This document shows, piece by piece, positions 12,277-38,674 of a DNA stretch of 64,000 nt (its first letter is position 1; every line of letters begins with the position of its first letter). The DNA is from Alphaproteobacteria bacterium (GTDB lineage Bacteria > Pseudomonadota > Alphaproteobacteria > UBA9219 > RFNS01), in the NCBI GenBank assembly GCA_016124955.1, contig WGMR01000007.1:154103-218102 (forward strand), read 5' to 3'. A model generated the notes under the pieces. The model was given only the letters and a program-made list of their open reading frames with translations, was not told the DNA's origin and did not search any database. A program made the translations under genes and the position numbers.

Positions 12277-12564
12277 ATGTCCATCGATAAAACCACCGTC
12301 GCGCGCATCGCCCGCCTCGCACGCATGAAGGTGCCGGACGAGCAGCTCGAGCAGGTCGCGGGCGAGCTGAACCAGATCCTGGATTGGGTCGCGATGCTTG
12401 ACGAGGTCGATGTGAAGAATGTGCCGCCGATGCAGAGCGTGCACGATATGCCGCTGCGCTGGCGCGAGGACAAGGTGACGGACGGCGCGCGCGCAGGCGA
12501 CATTCTCTCCGCCGCGCCTTCGCGCACCGCCGATTTTTTCACCGTGCCGAAGGTGGTGGAATGA
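12277..12564 (+). CDS. gatC: Asp/Glu-tRNA amidotransferase subunit C
   Basis: [36 protein letters not shown]. Confidence 0.95.
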
Positions 12565-25600: not shown

Positions 25601-25669
25601 AGGGCGCTTTTAGCACGGAAAACCGCGAATTTCATGCCCAAAATAAGGATGGGACACGGCGCAAGGCGA

Positions 25670-26473: not shown

Positions 26474-26499
26474 GGCGGGATCGGCCCTTTCCGTTCGTG

Positions 26500-28119
26500 T
26501 TATGCGCTGCGCATATCTTGCGTATCGGCGCGGCTTCTGTCCGGGTCGCCGGCCAGGGAATAAGGGTGCATATTCCAGCGATCAAGGCAATTCTGCCAAT
26601 ATTCATAGCTGCGAAGTTCGTTCGGCGTACCCCATCCGAGATAATGATCGATTGCGAACAACCTGCAATCGAGCCCGAGCGCGCAGGCATCGTTGATGGC
26701 GGTATCGATATAGAATTCGCCGTTCACGCGGGCGTTGCGTCCTTGCATGCGCGCGACCGCGCGGCGGAAATCGCCCGCACGACGGAAAGTGAAGGTGCCT
26801 GTGACAACCGGGTCGTGTGCCGGGTCTGCCAACGGGACCTTGACGGAAACGTTGCGTATTCTGCCCGCTCCGTCGGCATCGACCCAGCCATAGGCTTGCG
26901 GTTTCTGCGCCGCCTGCGGGTGGCCGCGCACCGCCCAGACGATTGCGTCCACAGCAGGGTCTGCCAGCAGACGCGCCAGCGCTGCCGCATCATAGATCAT
27001 GCCGTGATCACACGCGCCGAAAGTGACCATGGTTTCGTCATGCATGCCTGCGAGGCCTTCCAGGGCCGTGATCGCCTGGCCTTCCGTCAGGCTTTCAAGC
27101 AAAGCTATATCGATGCCCGGAACTTCAAGGCGCAATGATTTTTGCAACCGGTCAAGACCGGGCAGATCGCGCCGCAAAACCGCGCGCACACGCTCGGCGC
27201 GCGGCAAATCACCCAGCGCTTGTACCGCCATCGGTCGCCCGGTTACGGGTATTAGCGGTTTCGGCGCGTCATAGCCTTCGTCCGCGAACCGCCGGCCCCG
27301 CCCCGCCATCGGCACAACCACGCTGCCCGCGATCTGCGCGCGGGATGGCTCCTGCATCTGGCTTCGTAAAAGCGATGACCAGCGGGTGAAATCGGTCAGG
27401 TCTTCGGGCGTGCCCCATTGCATGAAATGATCCATCGCGGCCACGCGGATATCGGCCCCGCGTTCCAGCAACGGACGATAAGCGAGACTTACGTAATGTT
27501 CACCGTTAATCTGCAGATCGTCCCGTTCTTCCAGCGCGCGCATGACTTCCAGCATTAGCGCGCCGGTGCGGAAGTAATAGCCGCCGGAAAGCGCATATTC
27601 GCTCATCGGGTTGTCGGTATAGGGCTGTTTCTCCTGAATGGCGGCGACGCGCGTCCCGTCCATTTGCACATAACCGTAATGGTGGTTGCGCAGCATGTGC
27701 GGATGAAAGCCGGTATAGGCCATCAGCGCGCCATCGCACGCGGTCGTTTCCGTCATGGCGCGGAAGGCGGCATAATCCCACAAGCCCGCATAGTCGCAGT
27801 AACTGACGATCACGGGCTCGTCCGGCTTTACATGGTCGGCGGCGGCCAGCACGGCATGCACGGGGCCGCGCCCGTGCGGCTCGATCGCCGCGACCGTGCC
27901 CGCGGGCCGCAGCGCTGCGAGCATGCCGGCCATATTCCATGCGGGTTCAGCCAGATGATCGCGGTTGCAGATAAAAAGGACATCTTGTTCGCCGGGAAAC
28001 AGATCGACGACATGGGCGATGATGGGTTTGCCCTCAACCTCGATCAGCGGTTTGGGAACCTTGTAGCCCGCGCGGCGAAAACGTTCGCCGGAGCCTGACA
28101 TGGGGATAATAATTTGCAT
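26500..28119 (-). CDS. Tandem two-domain sugar nucleotidyltransferase (NTP transferase x2)
   Basis: IIIPMSGSGERF..GY..PKPLI and VVVPMAGRGRRF..GY..PKPLI; each half ends NGE(H/F)Y..WGTP. Confidence 0.85.
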   Translation of the reverse strand: MQIIIPMSGSGERFRRAGYKVPKPLIEVEGKPIIAHVVDLFPGEQDVLFICNRDHLAEPAWNMAGMLAALRPAGTVAAIEPHGRGPVHAVLAAADHVKPDEPVIVSYCDYAGLWDYAAFRAMTETTACDGALMAYTGFHPHMLRNHHYGYVQMDGTRVAAIQEKQPYTDNPMSEYALSGGYYFRTGALMLEVMRALEERDDLQINGEHYVSLAYRPLLERGADIRVAAMDHFMQWGTPEDLTDFTRWSSLLRSQMQEPSRAQIAGSVVVPMAGRGRRFADEGYDAPKPLIPVTGRPMAVQALGDLPRAERVRAVLRRDLPGLDRLQKSLRLEVPGIDIALLESLTEGQAITALEGLAGMHDETMVTFGACDHGMIYDAAALARLLADPAVDAIVWAVRGHPQAAQKPQAYGWVDADGAGRIRNVSVKVPLADPAHDPVVTGTFTFRRAGDFRRAVARMQGRNARVNGEFYIDTAINDACALGLDCRLFAIDHYLGWGTPNELRSYEYWQNCLDRWNMHPYSLAGDPDRSRADTQDMRSA

Positions 28120-28200
28120 CCATGCGCCCGTGATATAGTATTTCATGGCACTATAGCCGGAACGACCGGCGCAAAAAACACCTAATTCCCGGCGATTTCC

Positions 28201-28968
28201 ATGCCCCAGACCGGCCCCATCCTTATTGCGCACCGCCGCAACCGCCTGGCCGACCTTGCCGCCGTGGCGCGCGGCAACTGGGTCGAGGTTGATATCGAAT
28301 TGCATGAAGGCGAAGCATATCTGGCGCACGACCCGTTGCCCGCACCGCCGGGTGCAATGGATCCGCCGCCCGCCCGGCTAAAGGATTATATGCGTGCCGC
28401 GCAGGAAGCCGGGATCGCCGGTTTTGTGTTCGATTGCAAACGAGAAGGCGCGGCCGCTTTCGTTATGCCGCATTTACGCAGCGCGGGGATAAAAAATTAT
28501 TTCTTTCTGAACGAGACGGAAGTGAGCGCCGATATCGTGCGTACACAAAATGATGCGCATGTCACCGCTTTGCGGCTGTGGCAGTATCGCGGTGCGGACG
28601 AACTGGCTCGCTATATCGAAGACACGTCCGCGCCGCTTTGGGTTTGGGTCGATTGCTGGGCGCGCGGGCTTACGGAAAATATTGCGCGGGCGCATTTGCC
28701 GTTTACGCCGGCGCAAGCGGCGAAGCTGCGCGGCGCGGGTGCGCGGCTGTGCATATGCTCGCCGGAACTGTATGCGCACAGGTATGGCCAAAGTTACGTG
28801 CCCGGCGCGCTCGCGGCGATTTATCGCGGTGTGCTGAAGTATCGCGCGCGGCTGGAAAAAGAAAACATTGCGTTCGATGCGGTGTGCAGCAAGTTTCCGG
28901 GGCTTTGGTCGGGCGCGCTCGGTGCGCTGGCCGGCGCCAACGAGGCGGATCTTTTGCGTGCAGGCTGA
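28201..28968 (+). CDS. PLC-like/glycerophosphodiester phosphodiesterase-fold protein
   Basis: IAHRRN, VEVDIE, LAHDP, WVWVDCW, ICSPEL pattern typical of PDE-like proteins in glycan loci. Confidence 0.6.
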   Translation: MPQTGPILIAHRRNRLADLAAVARGNWVEVDIELHEGEAYLAHDPLPAPPGAMDPPPARLKDYMRAAQEAGIAGFVFDCKREGAAAFVMPHLRSAGIKNYFFLNETEVSADIVRTQNDAHVTALRLWQYRGADELARYIEDTSAPLWVWVDCWARGLTENIARAHLPFTPAQAAKLRGAGARLCICSPELYAHRYGQSYVPGALAAIYRGVLKYRARLEKENIAFDAVCSKFPGLWSGALGALAGANEADLLRAG

Positions 28969-28971
28969 GCG

Positions 28972-29982
28972 TCAGCGCGCCAGCGCCTGCCGGTGTTTTT
29001 CCGCATCCCAATCCAGCAGCCTGTCTTCGTCCGCCGCGCTAAGATAATGAAGCGAAGCGTCGGCGGGAACGCGAAGCAGCACCTGCGCGAGGCATTCGGC
29101 CATCGCTTCCCCGGCCCTTGAAAGCGCGGACGAAAGCAGCGCGCCCTTGCCGCGCACCAGCAAAAGCGGCGCGGCGGACGGGTCGGCGTCTGGAAAGTCT
29201 TCGGCATCGATAACTTTCACGCCGCGGCCAAGGAACACGGCATGGTCCGGGTACAGCGTGCCGCCGCAAGCGAAGCCGCAAGCGTCGGCATCGTTTGCAA
29301 GGCCGTGCACAACGGGGTTCTCCGGAACGCGCCACGCGCCCTGTCGCGCCATGCGTTGAAGATAGACGTGATCGGGCGCGGGCGATACGCGCGCAGGCGC
29401 GGCCAGCCGTGCGACGGATTCGGCAAGAAGTTTTTCGGTTTCCTCGACACTTTCGCCCGCGACGATCAACCCGTGATTACCGAGCACAATGACATTCGGC
29501 GGCGTTTCACCCGCGATTACGCGGATCGCACGGGTCAGCGGCCAGCCCGGATGCGCGTAGGGGATGAAGGCGTGGCGTATATCGGCCAGCCGCCCGGCGC
29601 ATTGGGTGCCGCCATCCTGCCGCACGGCCAGCGCAATCGCGCCTACAGCGTGGACATGCACAACAACGCGTTGCGGCAGCGCCGCATGCATGGATGTTTC
29701 GATCGACGGGCGCAGGCCGTTTGCGGCCCCAACCGTTTCGGCAACAGGTTCGCGCCCGCCCGCAATATCAGCGCGCAGCGCCGTGTAATCCACGGGAACA
29801 AAAATATCGCCTCGCGCAGCGTCAGCAAGCCATGTGCCGGAAGCCTTGATCCACATGGCGGCGCCATGCTTGACCGACATATTGCCCCCGCCGCCCTGTA
29901 CCAGAAGCGGGTCAGCGCCTATGCGCGCCGAGCTTTGCACGAAGCCGGAAAAATCGGATGGCCGGGATGGATGCTCTGTCAT
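28972..29982 (-). CDS. Class II aldolase/adducin family protein
   Basis: LVQGGGGNMSVK, IKASG, RPSIETSMH, HVH Zn ligands, NHGL, LYPDH. Confidence 0.85.
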   Translation of the reverse strand: MTEHPSRPSDFSGFVQSSARIGADPLLVQGGGGNMSVKHGAAMWIKASGTWLADAARGDIFVPVDYTALRADIAGGREPVAETVGAANGLRPSIETSMHAALPQRVVVHVHAVGAIALAVRQDGGTQCAGRLADIRHAFIPYAHPGWPLTRAIRVIAGETPPNVIVLGNHGLIVAGESVEETEKLLAESVARLAAPARVSPAPDHVYLQRMARQGAWRVPENPVVHGLANDADACGFACGGTLYPDHAVFLGRGVKVIDAEDFPDADPSAAPLLLVRGKGALLSSALSRAGEAMAECLAQVLLRVPADASLHYLSAADEDRLLDWDAEKHRQALAR

Positions 29983-30114
29983 GATTTACACGGGTGCTTG
30001 CGTTTATGGGTGTAAACTACAAGGCTGGGGCAAAACAGGGAACCGCATATATTTTTCTCGCAGACCGGCGGCATGAAGGCTTTTCCACTGCGTCCGCGCG
30101 TGGCATGATCCGCC

Positions 30115-31212
30115 ATGATGCTGGATTTTGAGCAAAAACTGCGCGGACGCAAGGTCTTGGTAACCGGCCATACCGGTTTTACCGGGGGCTGGGCCTGTGT
30201 GTGGCTGCGGGCGCTTGGTGCCGAGGTTTCGGGCTATGCGCTTGCGCCGGAAACTGAGCCGGCTTTGTATAATCTGCTCGGGATCGAGAGCGATATGCAA
30301 TCCTGTATCGGTGATATCCGCGATACGGAGAAACTGAACGCCTTTGTGCGCAGTATCGGGCCCGATGCGGTTTTGCATCTGGCGGCGCAGCCCCTGGTTC
30401 GCCGTTCCTACCGTGCGCCGCTTGAAACCTTCGCCGTAAACGCGCTCGGTACCGCGCATGTGCTGGAAGCGGCGCGGATGGCGGGTACGTGCCGCGCCGT
30501 TGTGTGTGTCACGACCGATAAGGTTTACCAAAACAACGAAGACGGCCATGCGCATCGCGAAACCGATCCACTTGGCGGGTGCGATCCCTATAGCGCATCG
30601 AAGGCGGCGGCCGAGATTATCATTGACGGGTACAGAAATTCGTTCGGCAAAGCCGGAAACATGGCGATCGCTTCGGCGCGCGGCGGCAATATTATCGGCG
30701 GCGGCGATTGGTCGGAAGACCGCCTTGTGCCCGATTATGTGCGCGCGCAGCAGGCAAAGAAGAAGCTGGTTTTGCGCTATCCCGGCGCCGTGCGGCCGTG
30801 GCAGCATGTGCTTGGGCTCGTATATGGGTATCTGCTTCTTCTTGCGGGCCTTCCGGAAGCGCCGCAGCAGTATGCATGCGCATGGAATTTCGGCCCGCTT
30901 GACGATGCGCGCCTGACGGTGCGCGATGTGTTGGCGGTTCTTGCCGAAGAATGGACGCCGGCTGCGCTTGATTTCATGCAGGAACCCTTGCACGAAGCAG
31001 GCCTGCTGGCGCTGGACAGCACGCGGGCACGCGATCTGCTTGGCTGGGTTCCGCCGTGGGATACAAGGCGCGCGATAGCGGAAACGGCAGCATGGTATCG
31101 CGGCTATTATGAACGGCCCGCGCACGCGCGCGATTTGACGGAAACGCAGCTGCGGCAATGGCGCGAAGCGCTTGCGGCCATACAGGGAAAGGACCGGGCA
31201 TGCGCGTCCTGA
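30115..31212 (+). CDS. rfbG: CDP-glucose 4,6-dehydratase
   Basis: VLVTGHTGFTGGW, HLAAQPLVRRSY, TTDKVY, DPYSASK, GNIIGGGDWSEDRLVPD, RPWQHVL, WNFGP. Confidence 0.95.
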   Translation: MMLDFEQKLRGRKVLVTGHTGFTGGWACVWLRALGAEVSGYALAPETEPALYNLLGIESDMQSCIGDIRDTEKLNAFVRSIGPDAVLHLAAQPLVRRSYRAPLETFAVNALGTAHVLEAARMAGTCRAVVCVTTDKVYQNNEDGHAHRETDPLGGCDPYSASKAAAEIIIDGYRNSFGKAGNMAIASARGGNIIGGGDWSEDRLVPDYVRAQQAKKKLVLRYPGAVRPWQHVLGLVYGYLLLLAGLPEAPQQYACAWNFGPLDDARLTVRDVLAVLAEEWTPAALDFMQEPLHEAGLLALDSTRARDLLGWVPPWDTRRAIAETAAWYRGYYERPAHARDLTETQLRQWREALAAIQGKDRACAS

Positions 31213-32144
31213 TGACGGGTGGAAGCGGTTTTCTGGGCGCGCGGCTCGGCGGCTATATGATCGGTCGCTGTATCGAGCGCGTCATCAATATTGGCCGCAG
31301 CCCTTCGCTTCACAGCCTTGTGCACAGCATCACGGTGCCCGACCTTGTGCCCGCCGTTATCGATGATGTGCTGGGCGACGAAAAGTTCGATGTTGTTTTG
31401 CACCTTGCCGCCGCAGGCGTTGACCCCGACGACCGCGACGTGAAGGTGCTGACGCGCATCAACCGCGATTTGCCCGGCTGGCTGGTTGCCTTCGCCGCCG
31501 CGCGCGGCGCGAAGGCCGTTTTGCTCACCGGCAGCAGCGCCGAATACAGGCCCGCTCCGCCGGGCACGCTGTTGACGGAAGACATGCCGCTTGAAGCCGA
31601 AAAGACCTACGGTGCCAGCAAGGCGGCAGGCGGCCAGCTCGCGCTCGAACAGGGCGTCGCGCTCGGGCTGCCCGTAGCCGTGATCCGCATCTTCAATATC
31701 TATGGACCGGGCGAGGCCAAGCACCGGCTGTTGCCGTCCTTGATCCGCAGCCTGAAGGATGGAAAGCCCGCGCTCCTTTCACCCGGCACGCAGGTGAGGG
31801 ATTTTGTGTATGCCGACGATGTCTGTAACGGCCTGTGGATGGCGCTGGCGGCGCTGATGGAAGGGCGCATGGCCAGCGGCGCCTATAATCTTTGTACCGG
31901 CCACGGCACCAGCGTGGCGGATTTTGCGCGCGCGGTCGCGCAAAGACTGAAATTGCCGGAAGACCTTTTGCAGTTCGACCGCCTGCCCTTGCGGCCCGAC
32001 GATTTGCCTTATGTGGTGGGCGACCCTTCGCGCCTGCAGGCCGCCTGCGGCTGGCGGCCGGTTTATGACGTGCAGGCGGGCATCAGCGCGGCAATGATCG
32101 AACAGCTAAGCCCGGCGCGGTCGCTTTCCGGCAGGCGCAGCTAG
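31200..32144 (+). CDS. NAD-dependent epimerase/4-ketoreductase (extended SDR)
   Basis: VLMTGGSGFLG, GSSAEY, YGASK, FNIYGPGE, QVRDFVY. Confidence 0.85.
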   Translation: MRVLMTGGSGFLGARLGGYMIGRCIERVINIGRSPSLHSLVHSITVPDLVPAVIDDVLGDEKFDVVLHLAAAGVDPDDRDVKVLTRINRDLPGWLVAFAAARGAKAVLLTGSSAEYRPAPPGTLLTEDMPLEAEKTYGASKAAGGQLALEQGVALGLPVAVIRIFNIYGPGEAKHRLLPSLIRSLKDGKPALLSPGTQVRDFVYADDVCNGLWMALAALMEGRMASGAYNLCTGHGTSVADFARAVAQRLKLPEDLLQFDRLPLRPDDLPYVVGDPSRLQAACGWRPVYDVQAGISAAMIEQLSPARSLSGRRS

Positions 32145-32230
32145 ACCGTTTGCCGTCGGCCAAAAAAGCGTGCTAAACCTGCGAGCCGGCCCACGGCCCC
32201 GGCCCCCCTGTATTCCTGCTGGTAAACCAG

Positions 32231-33220
32231 ATGCAGAAACAATTGTTACGCAAACGCAACTTTTCAAAACCGCCGCTTATTTCGGTGTGTATTCCTGTGC
32301 TGAACGAAGTGGATAACATCGGCCCGCTTTATAGCCGTTTACAGGCGCTGGCGGACAAGATGGCGGACCGCTGTTCGCTTGAATTTATTTTTACCGATAA
32401 CCGTTCCAGCGATGGCACATGGGAACGGCTTGCCGAGCTTGCCAGGCATGATCAGCGTGTGCGCGCGCTTCGTTTTTCAAAAGGCGTCGGCTTTCAACGC
32501 TCGATCCTTGCCAACTACATTCACGCGCGCGGCGAAGCGGCACTGCAAATCGATGCCGATCTGCAGGACCCGCCCGAAATGCTGGAGCAGTTCTTCGCCA
32601 AGTGGCAAGAAGGCTATGATGTGATTTACGGTGTGCGCCGCGGGCGCCAGGAAGGCTGGTCTTTGAACCAGTTCCGCAAGTTCGGCTACTGGGTGATTGA
32701 CGCGATCAGCGAGCACCCAATTCCGCGCGACGTCGGGGATTTTCGCCTCGTTGACCGCAAGGTGATCGAAGCGTGCAAAAAGTACCGCTACCCGCAACCA
32801 TATTTGCGCGGGTTAATCGCCGGATTGGGTTTTTGGCAGACAGGCATTGTCTATGATCGTGCAGCACGTACCGCCGGGCTCAGCAAGTTTCCGATTAAAA
32901 AAATGATACATCTTGGGCTTACCGGGGTGTTCAATCATTCGACCGTGCCGTTGCGCCTTGCCACCTATATGGGGCTGTTTTTCGTAGGCGTCAGCATTGT
33001 TGGTGTCGGCTATTATTTGTTTCTGAAGATCGTGCACCCCGATTTGCCCCAAGGCCTTGCCAGCCTGCACATTCTGGTGCTGTTCGGCATAGGCTTTCTT
33101 TCGTTCCTGCTCGGGCTGCTTGGCGAATACCTGCTGCGCATCTATCTTATTTTGCGGCAGGAGCCGTTGGCGATCGTCGATGAGACGTTGAATTTTCTGC
33201 CTGAGGAGGTCAAGCTTTGA
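32231..33220 (+). CDS. GtrB/ArnC-like polyprenyl-phosphate glycosyltransferase (GT2 with two C-terminal TMs)
   Basis: IPVLNE, DNRSSDGT, IDADLQDPP, GYDVIYGVR, VGDFRLVDRKV, GLLGEYLLRIY. Confidence 0.9.
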   Translation: MQKQLLRKRNFSKPPLISVCIPVLNEVDNIGPLYSRLQALADKMADRCSLEFIFTDNRSSDGTWERLAELARHDQRVRALRFSKGVGFQRSILANYIHARGEAALQIDADLQDPPEMLEQFFAKWQEGYDVIYGVRRGRQEGWSLNQFRKFGYWVIDAISEHPIPRDVGDFRLVDRKVIEACKKYRYPQPYLRGLIAGLGFWQTGIVYDRAARTAGLSKFPIKKMIHLGLTGVFNHSTVPLRLATYMGLFFVGVSIVGVGYYLFLKIVHPDLPQGLASLHILVLFGIGFLSFLLGLLGEYLLRIYLILRQEPLAIVDETLNFLPEEVKL

Positions 33221-33999
33221 AAAAAACCGGCATAAAAGCCGTTATTCTGGCGGGCGGGCGCGGAACGCGGATTGCGGAAGAATCCGATAACCGGCCCAAG
33301 CCGATGGTGGAAATCGGCGGCAAGCCGCTGCTTTGGCATGTCATGCAGTCCTACAGCAGGCACGGCGTGAAGGATTTCGTGATCTGTCTCGGTTACAAGG
33401 GATACGTGATCAAGGAATTTTTTTTCAATTACTACCGGCATATGTCGGATATCACGGTGAATTTGAAAAACGGCGAACTTGGCGTGCTCAATTCGCATAC
33501 CGAGGACTGGAACGTCACGCTGATCGACACGGGCGAGGAAACATTGACCGGCGGCCGGCTCAAGCGCGTCGCCGTATATTTGGGGAACGAGGATTTCTGC
33601 ATGACGTATGGCGACGGCGTCGCCGATGTCGATATTCGCGCCAGCATCGAATTTCACCGCAAGCACGGGAAACTGGCGACCGTTACTTCGGTGCAGCCGC
33701 CGGGCCGCTTCGGCGTGATGAAGCTTGGCGATACGAAGCAGGTAACGCGTTTCGAAGAAAAACCGCAGGACGAAATGGGCTGGATTAATGGCGGCTTTTT
33801 CGTTCTCTCTCCCGGCGTTATGGATTATATCGAAGACGACCGCACGTCGTGGGAGCGCGAGCCGCTGACGCGGCTGGCAAAGGACGGACAGCTGATGGCC
33901 TTTCCGCACCACGGGTTTTGGCAGGCATGCGATACGCTGCGCGACAAGCGCGCGCTCGAAGATTTATGGAAACTGGGCCAGGCGCCCTGGCTGCAATAA
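33217..33999 (+). CDS. rfbF: Glucose-1-phosphate cytidylyltransferase
   Basis: VILAGGRGTRIAEE, PKPMVEIGGKP, CLGYKGY.IKEFF, TLTGGRLKR, TYGDG, INGGFF, DTLRDK; TTG start with GAGGAGG RBS. Confidence 0.95.
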   Translation: MKKTGIKAVILAGGRGTRIAEESDNRPKPMVEIGGKPLLWHVMQSYSRHGVKDFVICLGYKGYVIKEFFFNYYRHMSDITVNLKNGELGVLNSHTEDWNVTLIDTGEETLTGGRLKRVAVYLGNEDFCMTYGDGVADVDIRASIEFHRKHGKLATVTSVQPPGRFGVMKLGDTKQVTRFEEKPQDEMGWINGGFFVLSPGVMDYIEDDRTSWEREPLTRLAKDGQLMAFPHHGFWQACDTLRDKRALEDLWKLGQAPWLQ

Positions 34000-34002
34000 A
34001 CT

Positions 34003-35052
34003 ATGGAAATTATCGAGCCCGGCGCCCGTCCGCCCGAAGCATCAAAGGCCGGAAAGCATCGCAGGCGCGCAGGCGGTTTGATCGGCATCGTTATTTCGGT
34101 GGTTTGTCTCTATTTCGTTTTGCGGCAACTGGATATAGCCGCGCTGTGGCGCACTGTGTCGGGCTTCGATCCTGCGCTGCTGCTTGGCGGACTCGCTGCG
34201 CTTGTTTTTGGCTATGCGATGCGCATCGTGCGGTGGGCGTTGATGTTGCGTGCGGGCGGTGCCCGGGTTGCGATTTTACGTTGCGCCGCGCCTTTCATGG
34301 GGTCGATGGCGCTGAACAATGTTTTGCCGTTGCGGGCGGGCGATGTCGTGCGCGCGCTGGTTTTTCCCGCCGCCATCGGCGCGGGCAAGGTAACGGCCGC
34401 TGCCAGCCTTGTGCTTGAACGGCTGCTTGATTTGCTGACATTGCTTGCGGTGCTTGGCGCCGGGTTGCTGCTTAGCCCCGGTCTTGAACTGCCGCAGGCG
34501 GCCAAGGAAATTGCGGTTATTCTATCCCTTTGCGGCGTGGTCGCGCTGATCGGCTTCATGCGGTTCGGCAACTTCACCATGCGGCAATTGATGCGGCTGG
34601 GCGGCTGGATGCAGCAGCGCAGCATGGGAAGTCTGGCCAGCGGCATCGGTGTGCTTGGCGGTTTTGTGGCCGATCTGCAAAGCATGGTCAGGCGCAACGC
34701 GCTGGTGACCGCCGGGTTGCTTTCCGTCTTTGTATGGGCGGGCGAAAGCGGTTTGATTTGGGCGCTTCTGAACGGGTCGGGCATTTCGGCCGCCTATCCC
34801 GCCGCGCTTGTGGTGACGGCTATGGTGACGCTTTCCACGCTTGTGCCTTCTTCCCCGGGCTATATCGGCCCGTTCCATCTGGCGGGCTATGCCGCCGCCA
34901 CCATGCTGGGCGCCACGCCCGAAACGGCGGCCGGTTTTTCCGTTATTGCGCATCTGGGGCTGTGGCTGCCGGTGACCCTTGCGGGAACAGCGGTGATCAT
35001 GTTCAATCGGCGCTTGTTTGCAGGCGCGGACCAAATGAGCCGGGATATATGA
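34003..35052 (+). CDS. UPF0104/lysylphosphatidylglycerol-synthase-TM-like flippase
   Basis: RW..ML, NNVLPLRAGDVVRA, LERLLD, VPSSPGYIGPF. Confidence 0.85.
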   Translation: MEIIEPGARPPEASKAGKHRRRAGGLIGIVISVVCLYFVLRQLDIAALWRTVSGFDPALLLGGLAALVFGYAMRIVRWALMLRAGGARVAILRCAAPFMGSMALNNVLPLRAGDVVRALVFPAAIGAGKVTAAASLVLERLLDLLTLLAVLGAGLLLSPGLELPQAAKEIAVILSLCGVVALIGFMRFGNFTMRQLMRLGGWMQQRSMGSLASGIGVLGGFVADLQSMVRRNALVTAGLLSVFVWAGESGLIWALLNGSGISAAYPAALVVTAMVTLSTLVPSSPGYIGPFHLAGYAAATMLGATPETAAGFSVIAHLGLWLPVTLAGTAVIMFNRRLFAGADQMSRDI

Positions 35053-36416
35053 GCGAACAATATGATGTTGCGATCGTGGGCGCGGGGTTCACGGGGCTTG
35101 CCGCCGCGTTCGATCTTGCGCGCGCGGGCAAAAAGGTTGTGCTGCTTGAAGCCGATGCCGCGCCGGGCGGGCTTGCCGGCACCTTTACCTTTCGTGATGG
35201 CGTGCGGATCGAGAAATTTTACCATCACTGGTTCTTGAACGATGAATATGTGCCGCCGCTGGTGCGCGAACTCGGCCTCGAGGGTGATATTGTGGCGCAT
35301 GCGTCACGTACCGGCATGTATTACAGCGGGAAAATGTGGCGGCTTTCGACTCCGCTTGATTTGCTGAAATTCACGGCGCTGCCGCTGCTCGATCGCATCA
35401 GGCTCGGGCTTCTGGTGCTGCGCGTGCGGGGTTTGAAGGACTGGAAGAAAATCGAACATCTCAGCATCCGCGAATGGCTTGAGCCGCTTTGCGGCAAGAA
35501 TGCCTTTCGTGTGGTGTGGGAACCGCTGATTTCGGCAAAATTCTCGTGCTTCGCGGAAGATATCAACGCAGTCTGGTTCTGGAAAAAACTTGCCTTGCGC
35601 GGCTCCACGCGCGACCGCAGCGGCGGCGAACAGCTCGCTTATTTCAAGGGCGGCTTCGGGCGGTTGGCCGAGGCGCTTGCGGCGGATATCCGCGCGCATG
35701 GCGGTGAAATTCGCTATGGATGCGCCGTTACCGGCGTACGCACGGAAGCGGGCCGCGCCGTTGCGCTGCAAACCGGCGCGGGCGGCGATGTGACGGCGCT
35801 GGAATATCTTTTCACGCCCGCACTGCCGGTGATCGCCGATATTTTTGCGCAAGGCGCACAGGCGGATTGGCTTGCCGGGTTGCGGCGCGTGCGTTATCTC
35901 GGCAACATCTGTCTCGTGCTCGCGCTCGATCGCAGCCTTTCCGATACGTATTGGCTAAACGTCAATGACCCGGGCTTTCCTTTTGTCGGCGTGATCGAAC
36001 ATACGAATTTCGATCCGCCGGAAAATTACGGCGGGCGCAGGGTCGTTTATCTTTCACGTTATCTGGCTTCTTCCGAACCCGTCTGGCAATATGATGACGA
36101 ATCGTATCTGGATTTTGCCCTGCCGCATCTGCAGCGCATGTTCCCCGCTTTTGAACGCGCCTGGATCAAGGATTACAAGGTTTGGCGCGCAACCTACGCG
36201 CAGCCGGTCACCGAGCGCGGCTATTCCGATTATGTGCCGCGCCAGCAAACCCCGTTCGAAAACGCGCATATTGCCACCATGGCGCAGATATATCCCGAGG
36301 ATCGCGGCACCAACTATGCTATCCGTGAAGGCCGCAAGGCTGCCGCCTCGCTGCTGCAGCAATTGGCGAACAGGGATGAAGCAAGTTTTGCCGCCACCCT
36401 GCGGCGGGTGTCGTGA
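35049..36416 (+). CDS. FAD-dependent oxidoreductase (protoporphyrinogen-oxidase-like, glycan-locus type)
   Basis: IVGAGFTGLAAA, LEA..PGGLA, EKFYHHWF, YPEDRGTNYA; ATGA overlap with flippase. Confidence 0.85.
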   Translation: MSEQYDVAIVGAGFTGLAAAFDLARAGKKVVLLEADAAPGGLAGTFTFRDGVRIEKFYHHWFLNDEYVPPLVRELGLEGDIVAHASRTGMYYSGKMWRLSTPLDLLKFTALPLLDRIRLGLLVLRVRGLKDWKKIEHLSIREWLEPLCGKNAFRVVWEPLISAKFSCFAEDINAVWFWKKLALRGSTRDRSGGEQLAYFKGGFGRLAEALAADIRAHGGEIRYGCAVTGVRTEAGRAVALQTGAGGDVTALEYLFTPALPVIADIFAQGAQADWLAGLRRVRYLGNICLVLALDRSLSDTYWLNVNDPGFPFVGVIEHTNFDPPENYGGRRVVYLSRYLASSEPVWQYDDESYLDFALPHLQRMFPAFERAWIKDYKVWRATYAQPVTERGYSDYVPRQQTPFENAHIATMAQIYPEDRGTNYAIREGRKAAASLLQQLANRDEASFAATLRRVS

Positions 36417-36430
36417 ATGAGGAAAGATCG

Positions 36431-38674
36431 ATGAAGAAGATTGCCGGATGGATTTTGCTTGCCGCGCTTGGCGCCGCTTTTCTGGCTGCCTGCATGATGG
36501 TGCTTGAAGCTTTCAACTATCACGGAAAAATACTGAACGGTGATCTTGTATATATAGAATCGCTTTACCGGGATTTCTTCGAACGCTCCTACCCGATAAG
36601 CGGCTGGCTGGTAAGCCGCGCGCCGTATTTCTTCCCCGACTGGGCGGTATTTTTTGCACTGCGCGAAACCGGCGCGGATTACAGCCAGTCTTTCGCGCTT
36701 TATATGCTGTTTATCGTTCTATTTATGACGGGCTTTTTTGCATGCCTGGCGCGGTATCTGTTCGGGCGCCTGCGTTTCGGTGACGGCGTTTTCATCCTGT
36801 TTTGGGGGTTGGTGCTAATCACGGCGTCCTGTTTCAATATTTTCCCGGCGCCGAAGGGCGTAACGGTCCCGCTGGAAATGCTGCAACTGCTTGCCCCCAC
36901 CATCCATGCCGGTGCCGCCGTGTGCGGGCTTATCGTGCTCGGGCTCTGGCTGCGCTCGCTTTCCCGCCCGGCGGGCAAGGGTATGCTGGCCGGGCTTTTC
37001 CTGTTTGCCACGCTGGCCAGCATGTCCGACCAGTGGTGGATCATATGGTTCGGCGTGCCCATCGGCCTTGTTGCGCTTTGGTTTATGGCGCGCGGCGAAC
37101 TGCCGTGGCGGCGTCACCTGCCGTTTCTGGTGGCGATGGGCGCGGGCGTGGTCGCCTCGCAGGGTGTTGTTTTCCTGTTGCAGGAAACCTCGGCGCTTTA
37201 TTTCTCGAACGTGCCGATCGGCGAAACCGGCAGCCCCGCGCTCCGTCATCTCGGCCACCTTCTGGCCGATCTTGGCCTTATGATTGCCGCCCTGCCGGTT
37301 TTCTCGCTCGGTATCTTTCTGCCTGCGGTCGCATTGGGCGCGCTGACATTGATGCGGAAGCGCGAAGACCGGTGGTTTTCACCCTTGCCCGCCGCCCCCA
37401 TATCGCCCGAACGGCAACTGGCGCTGAAAGCGCTTCACCTTGTCTTTCTTGTTTCGTTGCTGACGACCATGACGGCGATCGTGATCGTGAAATTGTGGAC
37501 GTATCCGAACTTCCGCTATCTTAGCAGCTATGTATTCGGCGCGTGGATAATTGCGGGGTTGTTCTATTTCAGGCATCTGCGCGCCACCGAAGGGTGGAAA
37601 AGCGTGCTGGCGTATGCGCTGCCGGTTGCGGCGCTAGTTGCGGCCTTGCCGGTCCTGATGTTTGTCCGCCCGGACATATTCGATCAACTGCGAAGGGAAG
37701 ACGGCACGTTTGGCTTGCCCCGTACATCTTACGGGCCGCACATGCTTTGCGTTGACGAACTTGCCCGCCGCGAAGGGCTGCGATATGGGCTCAGTGAGTA
37801 CGCTGAGGCCAAGCCGGTTACCGAGTTTTCAAGAGCCGGTGTGCAGGTTCATCAGGTCACGTACGAATTCGATATCCTGCACTGGATGAACAATTATCAT
37901 TGGTATCAGGATGTTCTGGACCCGAAGAGCGGGCAGCCCGGTTATGATTTCATTTTGTCGTACCCCGCAGGATCGGCGTACCAGCGCGTGCCATTCTATT
38001 TCGGCGAGCCTGACGAGCGGGTCCAGTGCGGCTCGTGGCAGATTATGATCTTTCGCGGCGCGAAGCGCGAACGGCTGAACGATTTCATGCGCGTCAAGCT
38101 GGTGAAGTTCCTTGAAAGCGTGGGCGACGAGAAAGCCGCCGCGCTGCGCCCGGACATGGCGCGGGAAGCCGTGTGGCAATTTATGCCGCTTGAGGCGAAC
38201 GAAATAGAAGCGCTGCCGGCAGACGGGGCAAAGCAGGAAGCCGGCGCGCGTGCCGTGCGCTGGCGCCTGCCTGAACCTGCGACCGGGGCTACTTTCGAAA
38301 TTCGGCAGGATGGCGCAAAGACGTTGCGCGGCCGCAAGTTCCGGCTGGCTTTCCGCGCGCGCGCGCCGGAAGGCGAGGTAACGGCCGATCTGCAGGTGGC
38401 CTATGTGCCGGAAGAAAGCAGCGGGCAGCGCATGACCATGATTGCGCCCGAACGCACGGATTCTTATACGCTTACCCCGGAATGGCAGACGATCGTGCGC
38501 GATTTCGCGGTGCCTTATGAAGCCGGAGCGGGCGGCGGCGGGGATTATTTGTTGGTGCGGCCCATTGTGATTTCGGCCCCCGGCGGCAAGACGATCGATA
38601 TCGCCGACGTTACGCTGCGCGTCATCGACATATTGCCGATGCCGCTCGCGCTTATACGGCCGGTCGAGAACTAG
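36431..38674 (+). CDS. Large GT-C-like membrane protein with periplasmic and CBM-like C-terminal domains
   Basis: Roughly 12-13 TM N-terminal half with NGDLVY..LY.D..GW....PYFFPD; C-terminal FRLAFRARA...YTLTPEWQT jelly-roll pattern; GAGGA RBS (alternative GTG 36413). Confidence 0.65.
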   Translation: MKKIAGWILLAALGAAFLAACMMVLEAFNYHGKILNGDLVYIESLYRDFFERSYPISGWLVSRAPYFFPDWAVFFALRETGADYSQSFALYMLFIVLFMTGFFACLARYLFGRLRFGDGVFILFWGLVLITASCFNIFPAPKGVTVPLEMLQLLAPTIHAGAAVCGLIVLGLWLRSLSRPAGKGMLAGLFLFATLASMSDQWWIIWFGVPIGLVALWFMARGELPWRRHLPFLVAMGAGVVASQGVVFLLQETSALYFSNVPIGETGSPALRHLGHLLADLGLMIAALPVFSLGIFLPAVALGALTLMRKREDRWFSPLPAAPISPERQLALKALHLVFLVSLLTTMTAIVIVKLWTYPNFRYLSSYVFGAWIIAGLFYFRHLRATEGWKSVLAYALPVAALVAALPVLMFVRPDIFDQLRREDGTFGLPRTSYGPHMLCVDELARREGLRYGLSEYAEAKPVTEFSRAGVQVHQVTYEFDILHWMNNYHWYQDVLDPKSGQPGYDFILSYPAGSAYQRVPFYFGEPDERVQCGSWQIMIFRGAKRERLNDFMRVKLVKFLESVGDEKAAALRPDMAREAVWQFMPLEANEIEALPADGAKQEAGARAVRWRLPEPATGATFEIRQDGAKTLRGRKFRLAFRARAPEGEVTADLQVAYVPEESSGQRMTMIAPERTDSYTLTPEWQTIVRDFAVPYEAGAGGGGDYLLVRPIVISAPGGKTIDIADVTLRVIDILPMPLALIRPVEN

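What the first reader, a model, noticed from the sequence alone, without database searches (positions are those of the whole stretch)
32231..38674. Coupled lipid-carrier glycosylation system with a flavin enzyme acting between flippase and transferase
Seen: GtrB-like GT2, rfbF, UPF0104 flippase-like, FAD oxidoreductase and GT-C-like genes are overlapping or nearly so. Known: GtrABC/Arn systems load a sugar on undecaprenyl-P, flip it, and transfer it in the periplasm; DprE1 is a precedent for flavin chemistry on a polyprenyl-P-sugar. Inference: a CDP-sugar-fed three-component system whose lipid-linked sugar is modified before transfer to lipid A, O-antigen or protein.
Basis: partly seen in the sequence, partly recalled or inferred. 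Interest (0 to 1): 0.62.

Follow-up and report, generated by a model that had tools for sequence, protein, structure and literature searches.

The report
Sugar-decoration operon with unexplained flavoenzyme
This operon loads a rare 6-deoxy sugar onto a membrane lipid carrier, flips it outward and attaches it to a surface glycan, and it carries a very conserved flavoenzyme of unknown reaction that accompanies such machinery in hundreds of bacterial species.

Summary
Window 30115-38674 (+) is one tightly coupled operon of seven genes:
- CDP-glucose 4,6-dehydratase (RfbG)
- an SDR
- a GtrB/ArnC-type polyprenyl-phosphate glycosyltransferase
- glucose-1-P cytidylyltransferase (RfbF)
- a UPF0104 flippase-like protein
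- a PRK07233 flavoenzyme
- a 747/753-aa membrane protein

The last protein has no Pfam, NCBIfam or PDB sequence match. An alignment-based AlphaFold model (pLDDT 84) matches only GT-C glycosyltransferases (Emb, AftD, ArnT, PglB), plus a C-terminal CBM4/22-like domain.

Across 74 loci from many phyla:
- The flavoenzyme sits just downstream of a GtrB-like gene in 65.
- A UPF0104 or GtrA gene lies beside it in 56.
- A large polytopic protein lies within 5 kb in 57.
- CDP-sugar genes occur in only 20.

UPF0104-flavoenzyme fusion proteins recur. The flavoenzyme is therefore tied to the lipid-carrier step, not to the CDP sugar. It has no signal peptide, so it probably acts on the cytoplasmic face before flipping.

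Its reaction is unknown: oxidation, ring contraction or carrier modification. The same gene order lies unexplained in the Pseudomonas syringae O-antigen locus. This is a new variant of a known kind.

The parts
30115..31212 (+). rfbG, CDP-glucose 4,6-dehydratase
   Evidence: TIGR02622 at 419.6 bits against a cut-off of 278. It is the first gene of the conserved cassette in Paraburkholderia, Methylocaldum and Azoarcus.
31200..32144 (+). Extended SDR (Epimerase family); presumed 4-ketoreductase or epimerase acting on the 4-keto-6-deoxy sugar
   Evidence: Pfam Epimerase at 7e-35. No NCBIfam equivalog. The ATG at 31200 follows a GGAAAGGA Shine-Dalgarno and overlaps the rfbG end. This slot holds a different SDR type in the Pseudomonas and Yersinia cassettes.
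32231..33220 (+). GtrB/ArnC-type polyprenyl-phosphate glycosyltransferase (GT2 domain plus 2 C-terminal TM helices)
   Evidence: PF00535. 5EKP GtrB at 1.8e-56 over residues 17-325, and ArnC at 3e-28. PgfS at 168 bits, below its cut-off. TM helices at 247-265 and 279-297.
33217..33999 (+). rfbF, glucose-1-phosphate cytidylyltransferase
   Evidence: TIGR02623 at 407 bits against a cut-off of 300. The TTG start overlaps the GT2 stop, with a GAGGAGG Shine-Dalgarno.
34003..35052 (+). UPF0104 / LPG_synthase_TM flippase-like membrane protein; presumed flippase for the lipid-linked sugar
   Evidence: PF03706 at 2.9e-44 and TIGR00374. In other loci the same slot is occupied by GtrA (PF04138, 6.5e-26). 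It is fused to the flavoenzyme in at least 13 protein clusters.
35049..36416 (+). PRK07233-family FAD enzyme (amine-oxidase/phytoene-desaturase superfamily); reaction unknown
   Evidence: PRK07233 at 505.5 bits against a cut-off of 252; PF01593 over its full length. It is 49-72% identical across phyla. It lies next to a GtrB-like gene in 65 of 74 loci.
36431..38674 (+). GT-C-fold glycosyltransferase candidate of a family that Pfam does not cover (747 aa; 753 aa if the GTG at 36413 is used)
   Evidence: No Pfam, NCBIfam or PDB sequence hit. 707 homologues by exhaustive HMMER. AF2 pLDDT 84. Foldseek: EmbA/B/C at 1e-5 to 1e-4, AftD at 6e-4, ArnT at 6e-4 (TM-score 0.51 on the target), PglB at 8e-4.
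36521..36679 (+). First periplasmic loop (residues 37-89 of the 753-aa form) carrying the family motif with D44, D54, W65, P75 and D76
   Evidence: D44 and P75 are invariant, and D54, W65 and D76 are at least 90% conserved, in 92 sequences. The loop holds two short helices in the model. It lies on the periplasmic side by the positive-inside rule.
37730..38122 (+). Periplasmic alpha/beta domain (residues 440-570), conserved across the family
   Evidence: The homology span of most family members ends near residue 570. D448, G459, Y463 and W464 are conserved. pLDDT is above 90.
38174..38623 (+). C-terminal beta-sandwich resembling CBM4/CBM22/CBM16; presumed acceptor-glycan binding
   Evidence: Foldseek: 1gui (CBM4) at 1.3e-4 with TM-score 0.55 on the target, plus CBM22 and CBM16 hits. 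pLDDT is only 46-86. No significant Pfam CBM hit.
24863..29982 (-). Divergently oriented neighbours, possibly part of the same glycan island: small GT2, SAM methyltransferase, double nucleotidyltransferase, class II aldolase
   Evidence: Pfam hits. The double nucleotidyltransferase is 52% identical to the gene next to the closest homologue of the GT-C protein on another contig.

Best explanation
The operon at 30115-38674 is a Gtr/Arn-like system for decorating a glycan outside the cytoplasm, with a fourth conserved component.

Proposed steps:
1. RfbF and RfbG make CDP-4-keto-6-deoxy-D-glucose, and the SDR converts it to a CDP-6-deoxyhexose. This is inferred from equivalog-level homology; the stereochemistry is unknown.
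2. The GtrB-type GT2 transfers the sugar to undecaprenyl phosphate at the cytoplasmic face. This is inferred from full-length similarity to GtrB and ArnC.
3. The PRK07233 flavoenzyme edits this lipid-linked intermediate. It is soluble, has no signal peptide, and is probably docked on the UPF0104 protein. The coupling to the lipid-carrier step is shown by comparative genomics. The reaction is not known. The candidates are oxidation of a sugar hydroxyl, pyranose-to-furanose ring contraction, and modification of the carrier.
4. UPF0104 flips the product. This is inferred; GtrA occupies the same slot in other loci.
5. The 747-aa GT-C enzyme transfers the sugar to a periplasmic acceptor, probably a polysaccharide recognised by its C-terminal CBM-like domain. 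The fold is shown. The activity and the acceptor are inferred.
For: Family assignments:
- RfbF, RfbG and PRK07233 score above NCBIfam cut-offs.
- The GT2 matches the GtrB structure 5EKP at 1.8e-56 and ArnC.

Operon structure: translational coupling at every junction from GT2 to the GT-C gene.

GT-C protein:
- AF2 model at pLDDT 84 and pTM 0.81.
- Every membrane-domain Foldseek hit is a GT-C enzyme that uses a polyprenyl-P or polyprenyl-PP donor.
- An invariant Asp lies at the start of the first periplasmic loop, and all conserved polar residues lie on the periplasmic side.

Cassette conservation: the same cassette, in the same order, occurs in Paraburkholderia, Methylocaldum, Azoarcus, Pseudomonas, Yersinia and Legionella.

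Neighbourhood counts over 74 loci:
- GtrB-like gene upstream on the same strand: 65.
- UPF0104 or GtrA: 56.
- CDP genes: only 20.
- Polytopic protein of at least 450 aa within 5 kb: 57.

Flippase slot: GtrA replaces UPF0104 in Massilia, Undibacterium and Duganella.

Fusions: at least 13 UPF0104-flavoenzyme fusion clusters, 47-100% identical to one another.

O-antigen link:
- In Pseudomonas the cassette abuts gmd, rmd and wbpL-like genes of the D-rhamnan O-antigen locus.
- The same gene order is listed as 'unknown sugar / unknown' in the P. syringae CPA locus (PMC7820976).
- Kelly et al. 2024 (PMC11127046) show a GT-C enzyme with a C-terminal CBM that binds its O-polysaccharide acceptor.
Against:
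- CDP-sugars are not documented donors for GtrB-type enzymes, to my knowledge.
- The flavoenzyme could act on the soluble nucleotide sugar.
- The GT-C Foldseek scores are modest (E 1e-5 to 1e-3; best TM-score 0.51).
- The 753-aa family shows no significant profile similarity to the polytopic proteins that follow the flavoenzyme elsewhere.
- Its closest homologue sits next to a double nucleotidyltransferase rather than next to this cassette. It may therefore also, or instead, serve the divergent upstream genes.
- No O-antigen backbone genes lie next to the operon in this genome.
Confidence: 0.62

Rival explanations
1. The flavoenzyme is a pyranose-to-furanose mutase that works like UDP-galactopyranose mutase, but on the polyprenyl-phosphate-linked sugar (or on the NDP-sugar while docked at the membrane). 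The GT-C enzyme would then add a (6-deoxy)hexofuranose side residue such as D-Fucf. This is a specific version of step 3 of the best explanation.
For: - It needs no reductase partner. That fits the many stand-alone four-gene modules with no SDR.
- It belongs to the same FAD superfamily as UGM. The family profile hits E. coli UGM 1i8t at 1.8e-11 over residues 7-216, level with PPO and MAO. The related PRK07208 group bridges to TIGR00031 UGM.
- Many invariant Arg and Tyr residues suit a phosphate-bearing substrate.
- The cassette lies in the P. syringae D-rhamnan locus. P. syringae pv. phaseolicola O-polysaccharide carries alpha-D-Fucf (PMC10888714, citing Zdorovenko 2001).
- An inverting GT2 followed by an inverting GT-C would give an alpha linkage (established mechanism; inference).
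- The best Foldseek hits are the furanosyltransferases Emb and AftD.
Against: - No GLF domain (PF03275) and no TIGR00031 hit appear among the listed matches for this protein.
- The best PDB profile hit is phytoene desaturase (3e-16), and HpnE aligns over the full length.
- The link to D-Fucf is circumstantial. The strain with the known structure was not shown to carry the cassette, and known D-Fuc pathways use dTDP.
Confidence: 0.2
2. The flavoenzyme oxidises a hydroxyl of the lipid-linked sugar to a keto group, as DprE1 does. The product is either used as such or re-reduced by an SDR to give an epimer.
For: - DprE1/DprE2 and the SDR ORF13 of Citrobacter show that lipid-linked sugars are edited before export (PMC11127046).
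- An SDR lies beside the module in this window and in several loci that lack CDP genes: L023, L026, L065, L058 and the Massilia-type loci.
- The amine-oxidase/PDS superfamily consists mostly of true dehydrogenases.
Against: - Many modules have no SDR nearby.
- In this cassette the SDR is already needed to reduce the 4-keto product of RfbG.
- The fold family differs from DprE1 (there is no FAD_binding_4 hit).
Confidence: 0.22
3. The flavoenzyme modifies the polyprenyl carrier itself, for example by saturating the alpha-isoprene unit to give a dolichol-like carrier. This would dedicate or stabilise a carrier pool for this pathway.
For: - The closest characterised relatives act on isoprenoid chains: PDS at 3e-16, and HpnE over the full length at 80 bits, plus CrtI and CrtD.
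- The flavoenzyme is the most conserved component (49-72% identity across phyla) even though the sugars evidently differ between loci. This fits a substrate feature shared by all modules.
- From my own knowledge: retinol saturase, of the same superfamily, saturates the double bond next to a terminal alcohol.
Against: - No alpha-saturated carrier is known in these bacteria, and a 2026 review of polyisoprenoid biosynthesis lists no bacterial polyprenol reductase.
- There is no obvious benefit for a single accessory pathway.
- The many conserved Arg and Tyr residues suggest a polar, phosphorylated ligand.
Confidence: 0.13
4. The flavoenzyme acts only on the soluble CDP-sugar, and its adjacency to the membrane proteins is merely operon packaging.
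For: - It is a soluble protein, encoded in an operon with three CDP-sugar enzymes.
Against: - Only 20 of 74 loci have CDP genes, while 65 of 74 have the GtrB-like gene.
- Recurrent fusions to UPF0104 tether it to the membrane.
- It stays 49-55% identical in modules that lack any nucleotide-sugar genes.
Confidence: 0.1
5. The module makes a free membrane glycolipid that is flipped to the outer leaflet, like GpgSDF (GlcN-phosphatidylglycerol) or HexSDF. The large membrane protein would not be a transferase for it.
For: - UPF0104 proteins accompany glycolipid synthases in P. aeruginosa gpgSDF (PMC12713373).
- About a quarter of the loci show no large polytopic gene within 5 kb.
Against: - GpgS is a GT4 enzyme, not a GtrB-type GT2.
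- Here the GT2 is a full-length GtrB/ArnC homologue.
- A GT-C-fold protein with a CBM-like domain is translationally coupled downstream.
- GtrA, a polyprenyl-P-sugar flippase family, substitutes for UPF0104 in other loci.
Confidence: 0.05

Closest known systems
GtrA/GtrB/GtrC O-antigen glucosylation systems (Shigella and Salmonella phages) and the Gram-positive CsbB/GtcA/YfhO-type systems
   Same: - A GtrB-type GT2 with two C-terminal TM helices.
- A small-molecule lipid flippase.
- A variable, acceptor-specific GT-C enzyme encoded last in the operon.
- An accessory, patchy distribution: the flavoenzyme ortholog is in 4 of 60 relatives, two of them pseudogenes.
   Different: - The donor is apparently a CDP-6-deoxyhexose made in the operon, not UDP-Glc.
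- The flippase slot holds UPF0104 instead of GtrA.
- A fourth, highly conserved flavoenzyme is present.
- The GT-C enzyme belongs to an undescribed family and carries a CBM-like domain.
Arn pathway (ArnC, ArnD, ArnE/F, ArnT) for lipid A aminoarabinose
   Same: - The GT2 is an ArnC homologue (3e-28).
- The lipid-linked sugar is edited at the cytoplasmic face before flipping (ArnD deformylase there, the flavoenzyme here).
- The final step is carried out by a GT-C enzyme. ArnT is a Foldseek hit with TM-score 0.51.
   Different: - The editing enzyme is a flavoprotein, not a deformylase.
- The flippase family is different.
- Nothing shows that lipid A is the acceptor, and the CBM-like domain points to a polysaccharide.
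Mycobacterial DPA pathway (DprE1/DprE2, Rv3789, Emb/Aft) and the GT136 pentofuranose three-component systems (Kelly et al. 2024, PMC11127046)
   Same: - Flavin-dependent or SDR-dependent editing of a polyprenyl-P-sugar before GT-C transfer.
- Emb and AftD are the top structural matches.
- GT136 ORF12 also carries a C-terminal CBM, which binds its O-polysaccharide acceptor.
   Different: - The donor is built by a Leloir-type GT2 from an NDP-hexose, not by a PRPP-dependent synthase.
- The flavoenzyme is of the amine-oxidase/PDS type, not the VAO/DprE1 type.
- No obligatory reductase partner is present.
Archaeal AglD-type modules: GT2 fused to, or next to, UPF0104 plus a PMT/STT3-like enzyme (Makarova et al. 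2015, PMC5898192)
   Same: - A GT2, UPF0104 and GT-C-like gene neighbourhood, with UPF0104 predicted to be the flippase.
   Different: - No flavoenzyme is described there.
- That system is archaeal N-glycosylation on dolichol phosphate.
P. syringae CPA-locus genes IYO_022960-022995 (Jayaraman et al. 2020, PMC7820976)
   Same: - The same annotated gene order: rfbG, epimerase/dehydratase, glycosyltransferase, rfbF, membrane protein, amine oxidase, hypothetical proteins.
- My Pseudomonas loci L014, L016 and L025 show the same order, and L016 continues into a gmd/rmd-like D-rhamnan locus.
   Different: - Sequence identity to those exact proteins was not checked here.
- The SDR slot holds a different SDR type in Pseudomonas.
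- The downstream membrane protein there is a DUF7024-type protein, not the family found in this window.
- The paper leaves the function open, and regards the last four genes as probably not part of the cluster.

Membership tests
GtrB/ArnC-type polyprenyl-phosphate glycosyltransferase (GT2) | GT-A catalytic domain with a DxD motif | tested here: met
   PF00535 at 3.9e-21 over residues 18-180. IDADLQDP is present in the translation.
GtrB/ArnC-type polyprenyl-phosphate glycosyltransferase (GT2) | Full-length similarity to solved GtrB and ArnC, including the two C-terminal TM helices | tested here: met
   5EKP at 1.8e-56 over residues 17-325; ArnC 9hwj at 3.3e-28. TM helices at 247-265 and 279-297.
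GtrB/ArnC-type polyprenyl-phosphate glycosyltransferase (GT2) | Transfers a sugar from an NDP-sugar to undecaprenyl phosphate | not testable with these tools
   This needs an enzyme assay or lipid LC-MS. The NCBIfam equivalogs PgfS and ArnC score below their cut-offs (168 against 500, and 99 against 529), so donor specificity is unassigned.
RfbF / RfbG (CDP-glucose pathway) | Score above the NCBIfam equivalog cut-off | tested here: met
   TIGR02623 at 407 against 300. TIGR02622 at 420 against 278.
UPF0104 / LPG_synthase_TM (MprF flippase-domain family) | Pfam PF03706 match over the whole domain | tested here: met
   152 bits against a cut-off of 33; residues 26-328 match profile positions 2-302 of 302.
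UPF0104 / LPG_synthase_TM (MprF flippase-domain family) | Lipid flippase activity | not testable with these tools
   Indirect only. GtrA (PF04138, 6.5e-26) occupies the same slot in other loci. Flippase activity is unproven even for GpgF.
GT-C glycosyltransferase superfamily | Polytopic GT-C core fold | tested here: met
   AF2 pLDDT 84. The Foldseek membrane-domain hits are all GT-C enzymes: 7bvc EmbA/B at 1.1e-5, 7bve EmbC, 6wby AftD, 5ezm ArnT (TM-score 0.51 on the target), 6gxc PglB.
GT-C glycosyltransferase superfamily | Conserved acidic residue(s) in the first extracytoplasmic loop, facing the periplasm | tested here: met
   D44 is invariant; D54 and D76 are at least 90% conserved in 92 sequences. 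The loop at residues 37-89 follows TM1, with the N-terminus inside by the positive-inside rule.
GT-C glycosyltransferase superfamily | Membership of a described GT-C sequence family (PMT_2, ArnT, YfhO, STT3, GT136 and others) | tested here: not met
   No Pfam or NCBIfam hit for the protein or for ten homologues. No PDB sequence hit, even with the family profile. CAZy families could not be searched directly.
GtrABC three-component system, strict sense | GtrA-family (PF04138) flippase and a UDP-glucose donor | tested here: not met
   The flippase slot holds UPF0104. The operon encodes CDP-sugar enzymes.
DprE1-type decaprenylphosphoryl-sugar oxidase | VAO-type FAD_binding_4 fold | tested here: not met
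   The only hits are the Amino_oxidase, DAO and NAD_binding_8 families. The top PDB profile hits are PDS, MAO, UGM and PPO.
UDP-galactopyranose mutase (Glf/UGM) | GLF domain (PF03275) or the TIGR00031 equivalog | tested here: not met
   No PF03275 hit. TIGR00031 is not among the 25 listed of 103 NCBIfam hits. The family profile aligns to 1i8t only over residues 7-216, at 47 bits.
NCBIfam PRK07233 (uncharacterised FAD oxidoreductase) | Score above the curated cut-off over the full length | tested here: met
   505.5 bits against 252; residues 6-439 match profile positions 2-432 of 435.
CBM4/CBM22-like carbohydrate-binding module | Beta-sandwich fold and a sequence-family match | tested here: inconclusive
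   Fold hits: 1gui at 1.3e-4 (TM-score 0.55 on the target) and CBM22 4xuo at 4.5e-4. However, pLDDT is 46-86. The only Pfam trace of CBM_4_9 is a non-significant 0.035 in the homologue P0002.

The most novel reading that the evidence does not exclude
The PRK07233 flavoenzyme is the first enzyme known to change the ring form of a sugar already loaded on undecaprenyl phosphate. It would convert the (6-deoxy)hexopyranose to the furanose while docked on the UPF0104 flippase. These four-gene modules would then be a general route for adding hexofuranose side residues, such as the alpha-D-Fucf of Pseudomonas syringae O-antigens, outside the cytoplasm.
Probability: 0.2. Interest if true: 0.85.

Novelty: new variant of a known kind. 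Interest (0 to 1): 0.6.

Why it matters
Three-component periplasmic glycosylation (Gtr, Arn, GT136) is a main source of serotype and phage-receptor variation. Editing of the lipid-linked donor is known for only a few cases: ArnD, DprE1/E2 and Citrobacter ORF13.

This work defines a fourth component, a flavoenzyme 49-72% identical across Proteobacteria, Cyanobacteria, Bacteroidia, Acidobacteriota, Gemmatimonadota and other phyla.
- It is almost always wired to a GtrB-type synthase.
- It is sometimes fused to the flippase-like protein.
- It has no known reaction.
- It sits in the O-antigen locus of the plant pathogen P. syringae, where the literature marks it 'unknown'.

Solving its chemistry would assign a function to a family present in at least several hundred species. 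It could reveal a new kind of lipid-linked sugar chemistry and explain unexplained side-chain sugars.

The work also defines a GT-C family of about 700 cluster representatives that Pfam does not cover.

Tried and rejected
1. Single-sequence AlphaFold of the 753-aa protein gave pLDDT 39 and was unusable. It was redone with a 92-sequence alignment.
2. Pfam, NCBIfam and PDB sequence and profile searches of the 753-aa protein and ten homologues found nothing.
3. hhalign of its family profile against the other polytopic proteins found downstream of the flavoenzyme gave at best 46% probability, against the DUF7024-type cluster. No common ancestry is claimed.
4. DprE1 membership is rejected because the fold family is wrong.
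5. UGM membership was not met. The mutase mechanism stays open, because the family profile is about equally distant from PDS, UGM, PPO and MAO.
6. The PRK07208-like or GLF-like flavoprotein next to a family member on L007 is not an ortholog of this flavoenzyme. Only the Rossmann motif aligns.
7. The GpgSDF-type free-glycolipid reading is judged unlikely, because GpgS is a GT4 enzyme.
8. Seven literature searches for this module found no characterisation. They found only the P. syringae locus table that lists it as unknown. The library lacks most subscription journals, so this absence is weak evidence.
It has LpxC and two Wzy_C/ligase-like genes, so it is a diderm with LPS.

Caveats:
- My neighbourhood statistics rest on crude ORF calling and Kyte-Doolittle TM counts.
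- They cover the 80 best-matching loci, so they are biased towards closer relatives.

Full report
**What is in the window.** Seven co-directional genes fill 30115-38674 on the + strand.
- rfbG, 30115-31212: TIGR02622 at 420 bits against a cut-off of 278.
- An extended SDR, 31200-32144: Pfam Epimerase at 7e-35 and no equivalog.
- A GT2, 32231-33220.
- rfbF, 33217-33999: TIGR02623 at 407 bits against 300.
- A UPF0104/LPG_synthase_TM protein, 34003-35052: PF03706 at 2.9e-44.
- A flavoenzyme, 35049-36416: PF01593 over its full length, and NCBIfam PRK07233 at 505 bits against 252.
- A 747/753-aa membrane protein, 36431 or 36413 to 38674.

The junctions are those of a translationally coupled operon. 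GT2/rfbF share TTGA behind a GAGGAGG Shine-Dalgarno. UPF0104 starts 3 nt after rfbF. UPF0104 and the flavoenzyme share ATGA. The last gene starts 15 nt after the flavoenzyme stop, behind GAGGAAAG. Terminator-like sites do not exceed the shuffled expectation.

The operon is flanked by housekeeping genes (gatCAB, sodB-like, carbonic anhydrase) and by the doxX/sigF locus. Directly upstream, on the other strand, lie a small GT2, a methyltransferase, a double nucleotidyltransferase and a class II aldolase.

**The GT2 is a real GtrB/ArnC enzyme.** It aligns over residues 17-325 with the solved Synechocystis GtrB (5EKP, 1.8e-56) and with three ArnC structures (about 1e-27 to 3e-28). It has the two C-terminal TM helices of that class. 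These enzymes load a sugar onto undecaprenyl phosphate, which is established knowledge for GtrB and ArnC. Its donor cannot be read from the sequence. The operon context suggests a CDP-6-deoxyhexose, which would be unusual for this class.

No E1/E3-type 3-deoxygenation genes are in the island. DegT-family genes exist elsewhere in the genome. A 6-deoxy rather than a 3,6-dideoxy product is therefore an inference.

**The large membrane protein has a GT-C fold.**
- It has no Pfam, NCBIfam or PDB sequence match.
- A word-indexed search found only two relatives.
- Exhaustive HMMER found 707 cluster representatives at E<=1e-3 and 18 at E<=1e-30. Homology covers residues about 10-570.
- An alignment of 92 members (A1) shows an NSDxLY...PAPYFFPD motif, with D44 and P75 invariant. 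D54, W65, D76, H165, G167, S205, D206, R368 and Y369 are at least 90% conserved.
- The single-sequence model was useless (pLDDT 39). With A1 the model reached pLDDT 84 and pTM 0.81.
- In Foldseek against the PDB, every match to the membrane domain was a GT-C enzyme that uses a polyprenyl-linked donor: EmbA/EmbB/EmbC (1e-5 to 1e-4), AftD (6e-4), ArnT (6e-4; TM-score 0.51 on the target) and PglB (8e-4). The C-terminal 150 residues matched CBM4, CBM22 and CBM16 modules (1gui at 1.3e-4).
- Applying the positive-inside rule to the predicted helices gives 11 TM segments, N-terminus in and C-terminus out. This places the D44/D54/D76 loop, H165, S205-D206 and R368-Y369 on the periplasmic face, where GT-C active sites lie.

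The fold features that define GT-C are therefore met. Membership of a described GT-C sequence family is not. Ten homologues also have no Pfam hit.

**The cassette is conserved, and the flavoenzyme belongs to the lipid-carrier step.**

The flavoenzyme has thousands of close homologues at about 70% identity, all annotated only as 'NAD(P)/FAD-dependent oxidoreductase' or 'protoporphyrinogen oxidase'. In Paraburkholderia edwinii, Methylocaldum and Azoarcus sp. CIB the order rfbG-SDR-GT2-rfbF-UPF0104-flavoenzyme is identical. It is followed there by a large protein with no Pfam hit or only a DUF7024 hit.

They come from Alpha-, Beta-, Gamma- and Deltaproteobacteria, Cyanobacteria, Bacteroidia, Acidobacteriota, Gemmatimonadota, Verrucomicrobia, Anaerolineae, Actinobacteria, Eremiobacterota and Nitrospinaceae. 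They include Yersinia rohdei, Y. frederiksenii, Legionella anisa and several Pseudomonas.

I called ORFs in the 80 best loci and searched them with the window's proteins. Among the 74 loci with enough flank:
- A GtrB-like GT2 lies within 4 kb upstream on the same strand in 65.
- UPF0104 lies directly upstream in 48.
- A GtrA-like gene lies within 4 kb in 8 loci; UPF0104 or GtrA is present in 56 in all.
- RfbF is present in only 20.
- A polytopic protein of at least 450 aa starts right after the flavoenzyme in 36.
- Such a protein lies within 5 kb in 57.

These downstream proteins fall into several clusters with no detectable mutual similarity. One cluster hits PMT_2, a GT-C family, at 9e-6. 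Two carry DUF7024 C-termini. That pattern is the same as a conserved gtrAB pair with a variable gtrC.

Many modules stand alone among unrelated genes, with no SDR or nucleotide-sugar gene nearby.

**Two further links.**
- In the Massilia, Undibacterium and Duganella loci, the gene between the GT2 and the flavoenzyme is a GtrA-family protein (PF04138, 6.5e-26) instead of UPF0104. This is non-orthologous displacement. It supports a polyprenyl-P-sugar flippase role for UPF0104 here, as predicted for archaeal AglD-type modules (PMC5898192).
- One locus encodes a single 818-aa UPF0104-flavoenzyme protein. A database search found at least 13 clusters of such fusions, 750-816 aa long, carrying both PF03706 and PF01593. 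They go down to 47% identity, so they are not assembly artefacts.

The N-terminus and the post-TM tail or linker of UPF0104 are Arg/Lys-rich. The flavoenzyme begins with its GxGxxG motif and has no signal peptide. It therefore works at the cytoplasmic face. The title's 'between flippase and transferase' describes the gene order, not the likely pathway order.

**What the flavoenzyme might do.** It is the most conserved part of the module: 49-72% identity across phyla, while the GT2 and UPF0104 bit scores fall much faster. Its invariant residues include many Arg, Tyr, Trp and His: FYHHWF, RxRLG, LRGxxR, NVNDPxFP, IEHTNF and YPEDRGTNY.

By profile it is about equally distant from several characterised families:
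- plant phytoene desaturase (3e-16)
- monoamine oxidase (1.6e-11)
- E. coli UDP-galactopyranose mutase (1.8e-11, residues 7-216)
- protoporphyrinogen oxidase (4e-11)

Among NCBIfam models, HpnE and PRK07208 align nearly over the full length at about 80 bits.

Sequence does not settle the chemistry. I rank the options as follows:
- Oxidation of a sugar hydroxyl, like DprE1, with or without an SDR: about 0.22.
- Ring contraction to a furanose, like UGM: about 0.20.
- Modification of the carrier chain: about 0.13.
- Action on the soluble CDP-sugar only: about 0.10.

These are alternatives for step 3 of the pathway. They are not alternatives to the overall architecture.

**Link to a known glycan.** Jayaraman et al. 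2020 (PMC7820976) list, in the P. syringae pv. actinidiae CPA (rhamnan O-antigen) locus, the order rfbG, epimerase/dehydratase, glycosyltransferase and rfbF ('synthesis of unknown sugar'). These are followed by a membrane protein, an amine oxidase and two hypothetical proteins ('unknown', thought not to belong to the cluster). That is the order of this cassette.

In my Pseudomonas locus L016 the cassette runs straight into gmd (483 bits against a cut-off of 415), an rmd-like SDR, two GT4 genes and a WbpL/WecA-like gene.

P. syringae O-polysaccharides are rhamnans with single side residues that include fucose. Alpha-D-Fucf is reported for pv. phaseolicola (PMC10888714, citing Zdorovenko 2001).

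An inverting GT2 followed by an inverting GT-C would give an alpha-linked residue. This is an inference from known mechanisms. It makes the furanose-mutase idea concretely testable, but it remains circumstantial. I did not show that the structurally studied strain carries the cassette. The SDR slot also holds a different SDR type in Pseudomonas than in this window.

**This genome.**
- The organism has LpxC and two Wzy_C/ligase-like genes, one about 11 kb beyond the window end. LPS or another periplasmic polysaccharide is therefore a plausible acceptor.
- The GT-C gene is unique to this genome among 60 relatives.
- The flavoenzyme ortholog occurs in only 4 of the 60, and two of those carry stop codons or a split gene. 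This is an accessory, horizontally moving trait that is sometimes decaying, as expected for surface variation.
- The closest homologue of the GT-C protein (36% identity; metagenomic) is followed by a double nucleotidyltransferase 52% identical to the one at window 26500-28329.
- Other family members sit beside small GT2 genes, methyltransferases, or GHMP-kinase/nucleotidyltransferase pairs.
- The 747-aa enzyme may therefore also be tied functionally to the divergent upstream genes. The whole 24863-38674 island may be one unit.

**Comparison with what is known, and verdict.**
- The system works like GtrABC, Arn and the GT136 pentofuranose systems. Kelly et al. 2024 describe a GT-C enzyme with an acceptor-binding CBM. 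They state they know of no other epimerases in O-polysaccharide side-chain glycosylation systems.
- It is not a strict member of any of these. The flippase family, the donor nucleotide and the GT-C family all differ, and there is a fourth conserved component.
- Two earlier follow-ups in this scan reached the same general reading for other genomes. I treat them as agreement, not as evidence.
  - the GT-C fold result for this orphan family
  - the recurrent UPF0104-flavoenzyme fusions
  - the GtrA/UPF0104 displacement
  - the neighbourhood counts
  - the literature link to the P. syringae locus and D-Fucf
- Verdict: real, not an artefact, and a new variant of a known kind.
- The flavoenzyme's reaction is the open and interesting question.

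Noticed in passing
window 26500-28329 (-) and L001 3242-4915: A 609-aa protein with two nucleotidyltransferase halves is 52% identical over 531 aa to the gene directly downstream of the closest homologue (36% identity) of the 753-aa GT-C protein, on an unrelated metagenome contig. This suggests a functional link between the two.
   Followed up: partly
window 14042-15385 (+): A 447-aa ORF with no Pfam hit is wedged between gatA (12561-14042) and gatB (15382-16851), with overlapping stops and starts. It is followed by an asparaginase-family gene at 16853-18094.
   Followed up: no
G030:C16:6572-7927 and G002:C1:709707-711027 (loci L097, L098): Orthologs of the flavoenzyme in two relatives of the same order and family are pseudogenes. 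One has an in-frame TGA. The other is split and carries TGA and TAA stops.
   Followed up: no
L045 7858-10314; proteins P0273-P0282, P0287, P0291, P0298: Natural fusion proteins of 750-816 aa, with UPF0104 at the N-terminus and the PRK07233 flavoenzyme at the C-terminus. They form at least 13 clusters, down to 47% identity.
   Followed up: yes
L046 and L051 (cyanobacterial endosymbionts of Rhopalodia): The reduced genomes of the diatom spheroid-body endosymbionts keep a GT2-flavoenzyme-641-aa polytopic protein module with no UPF0104 or GtrA nearby. This hints at an important envelope role there.
   Followed up: no
L093 (groundwater metagenome contig): An 870-aa member of the new GT-C family lies in a glycan locus with six separate class I SAM methyltransferase genes, a GtrB-sized GT2, SDRs, a UDP-glucose dehydrogenase and a GHMP kinase.
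   Followed up: no
window 28201-28968 (+): A 255-aa ORF with no Pfam hit lies between the double nucleotidyltransferase and the aldolase. It overlaps the annotated 5' end of the former by about 130 nt, so one of the two start assignments is probably wrong.
   Followed up: no
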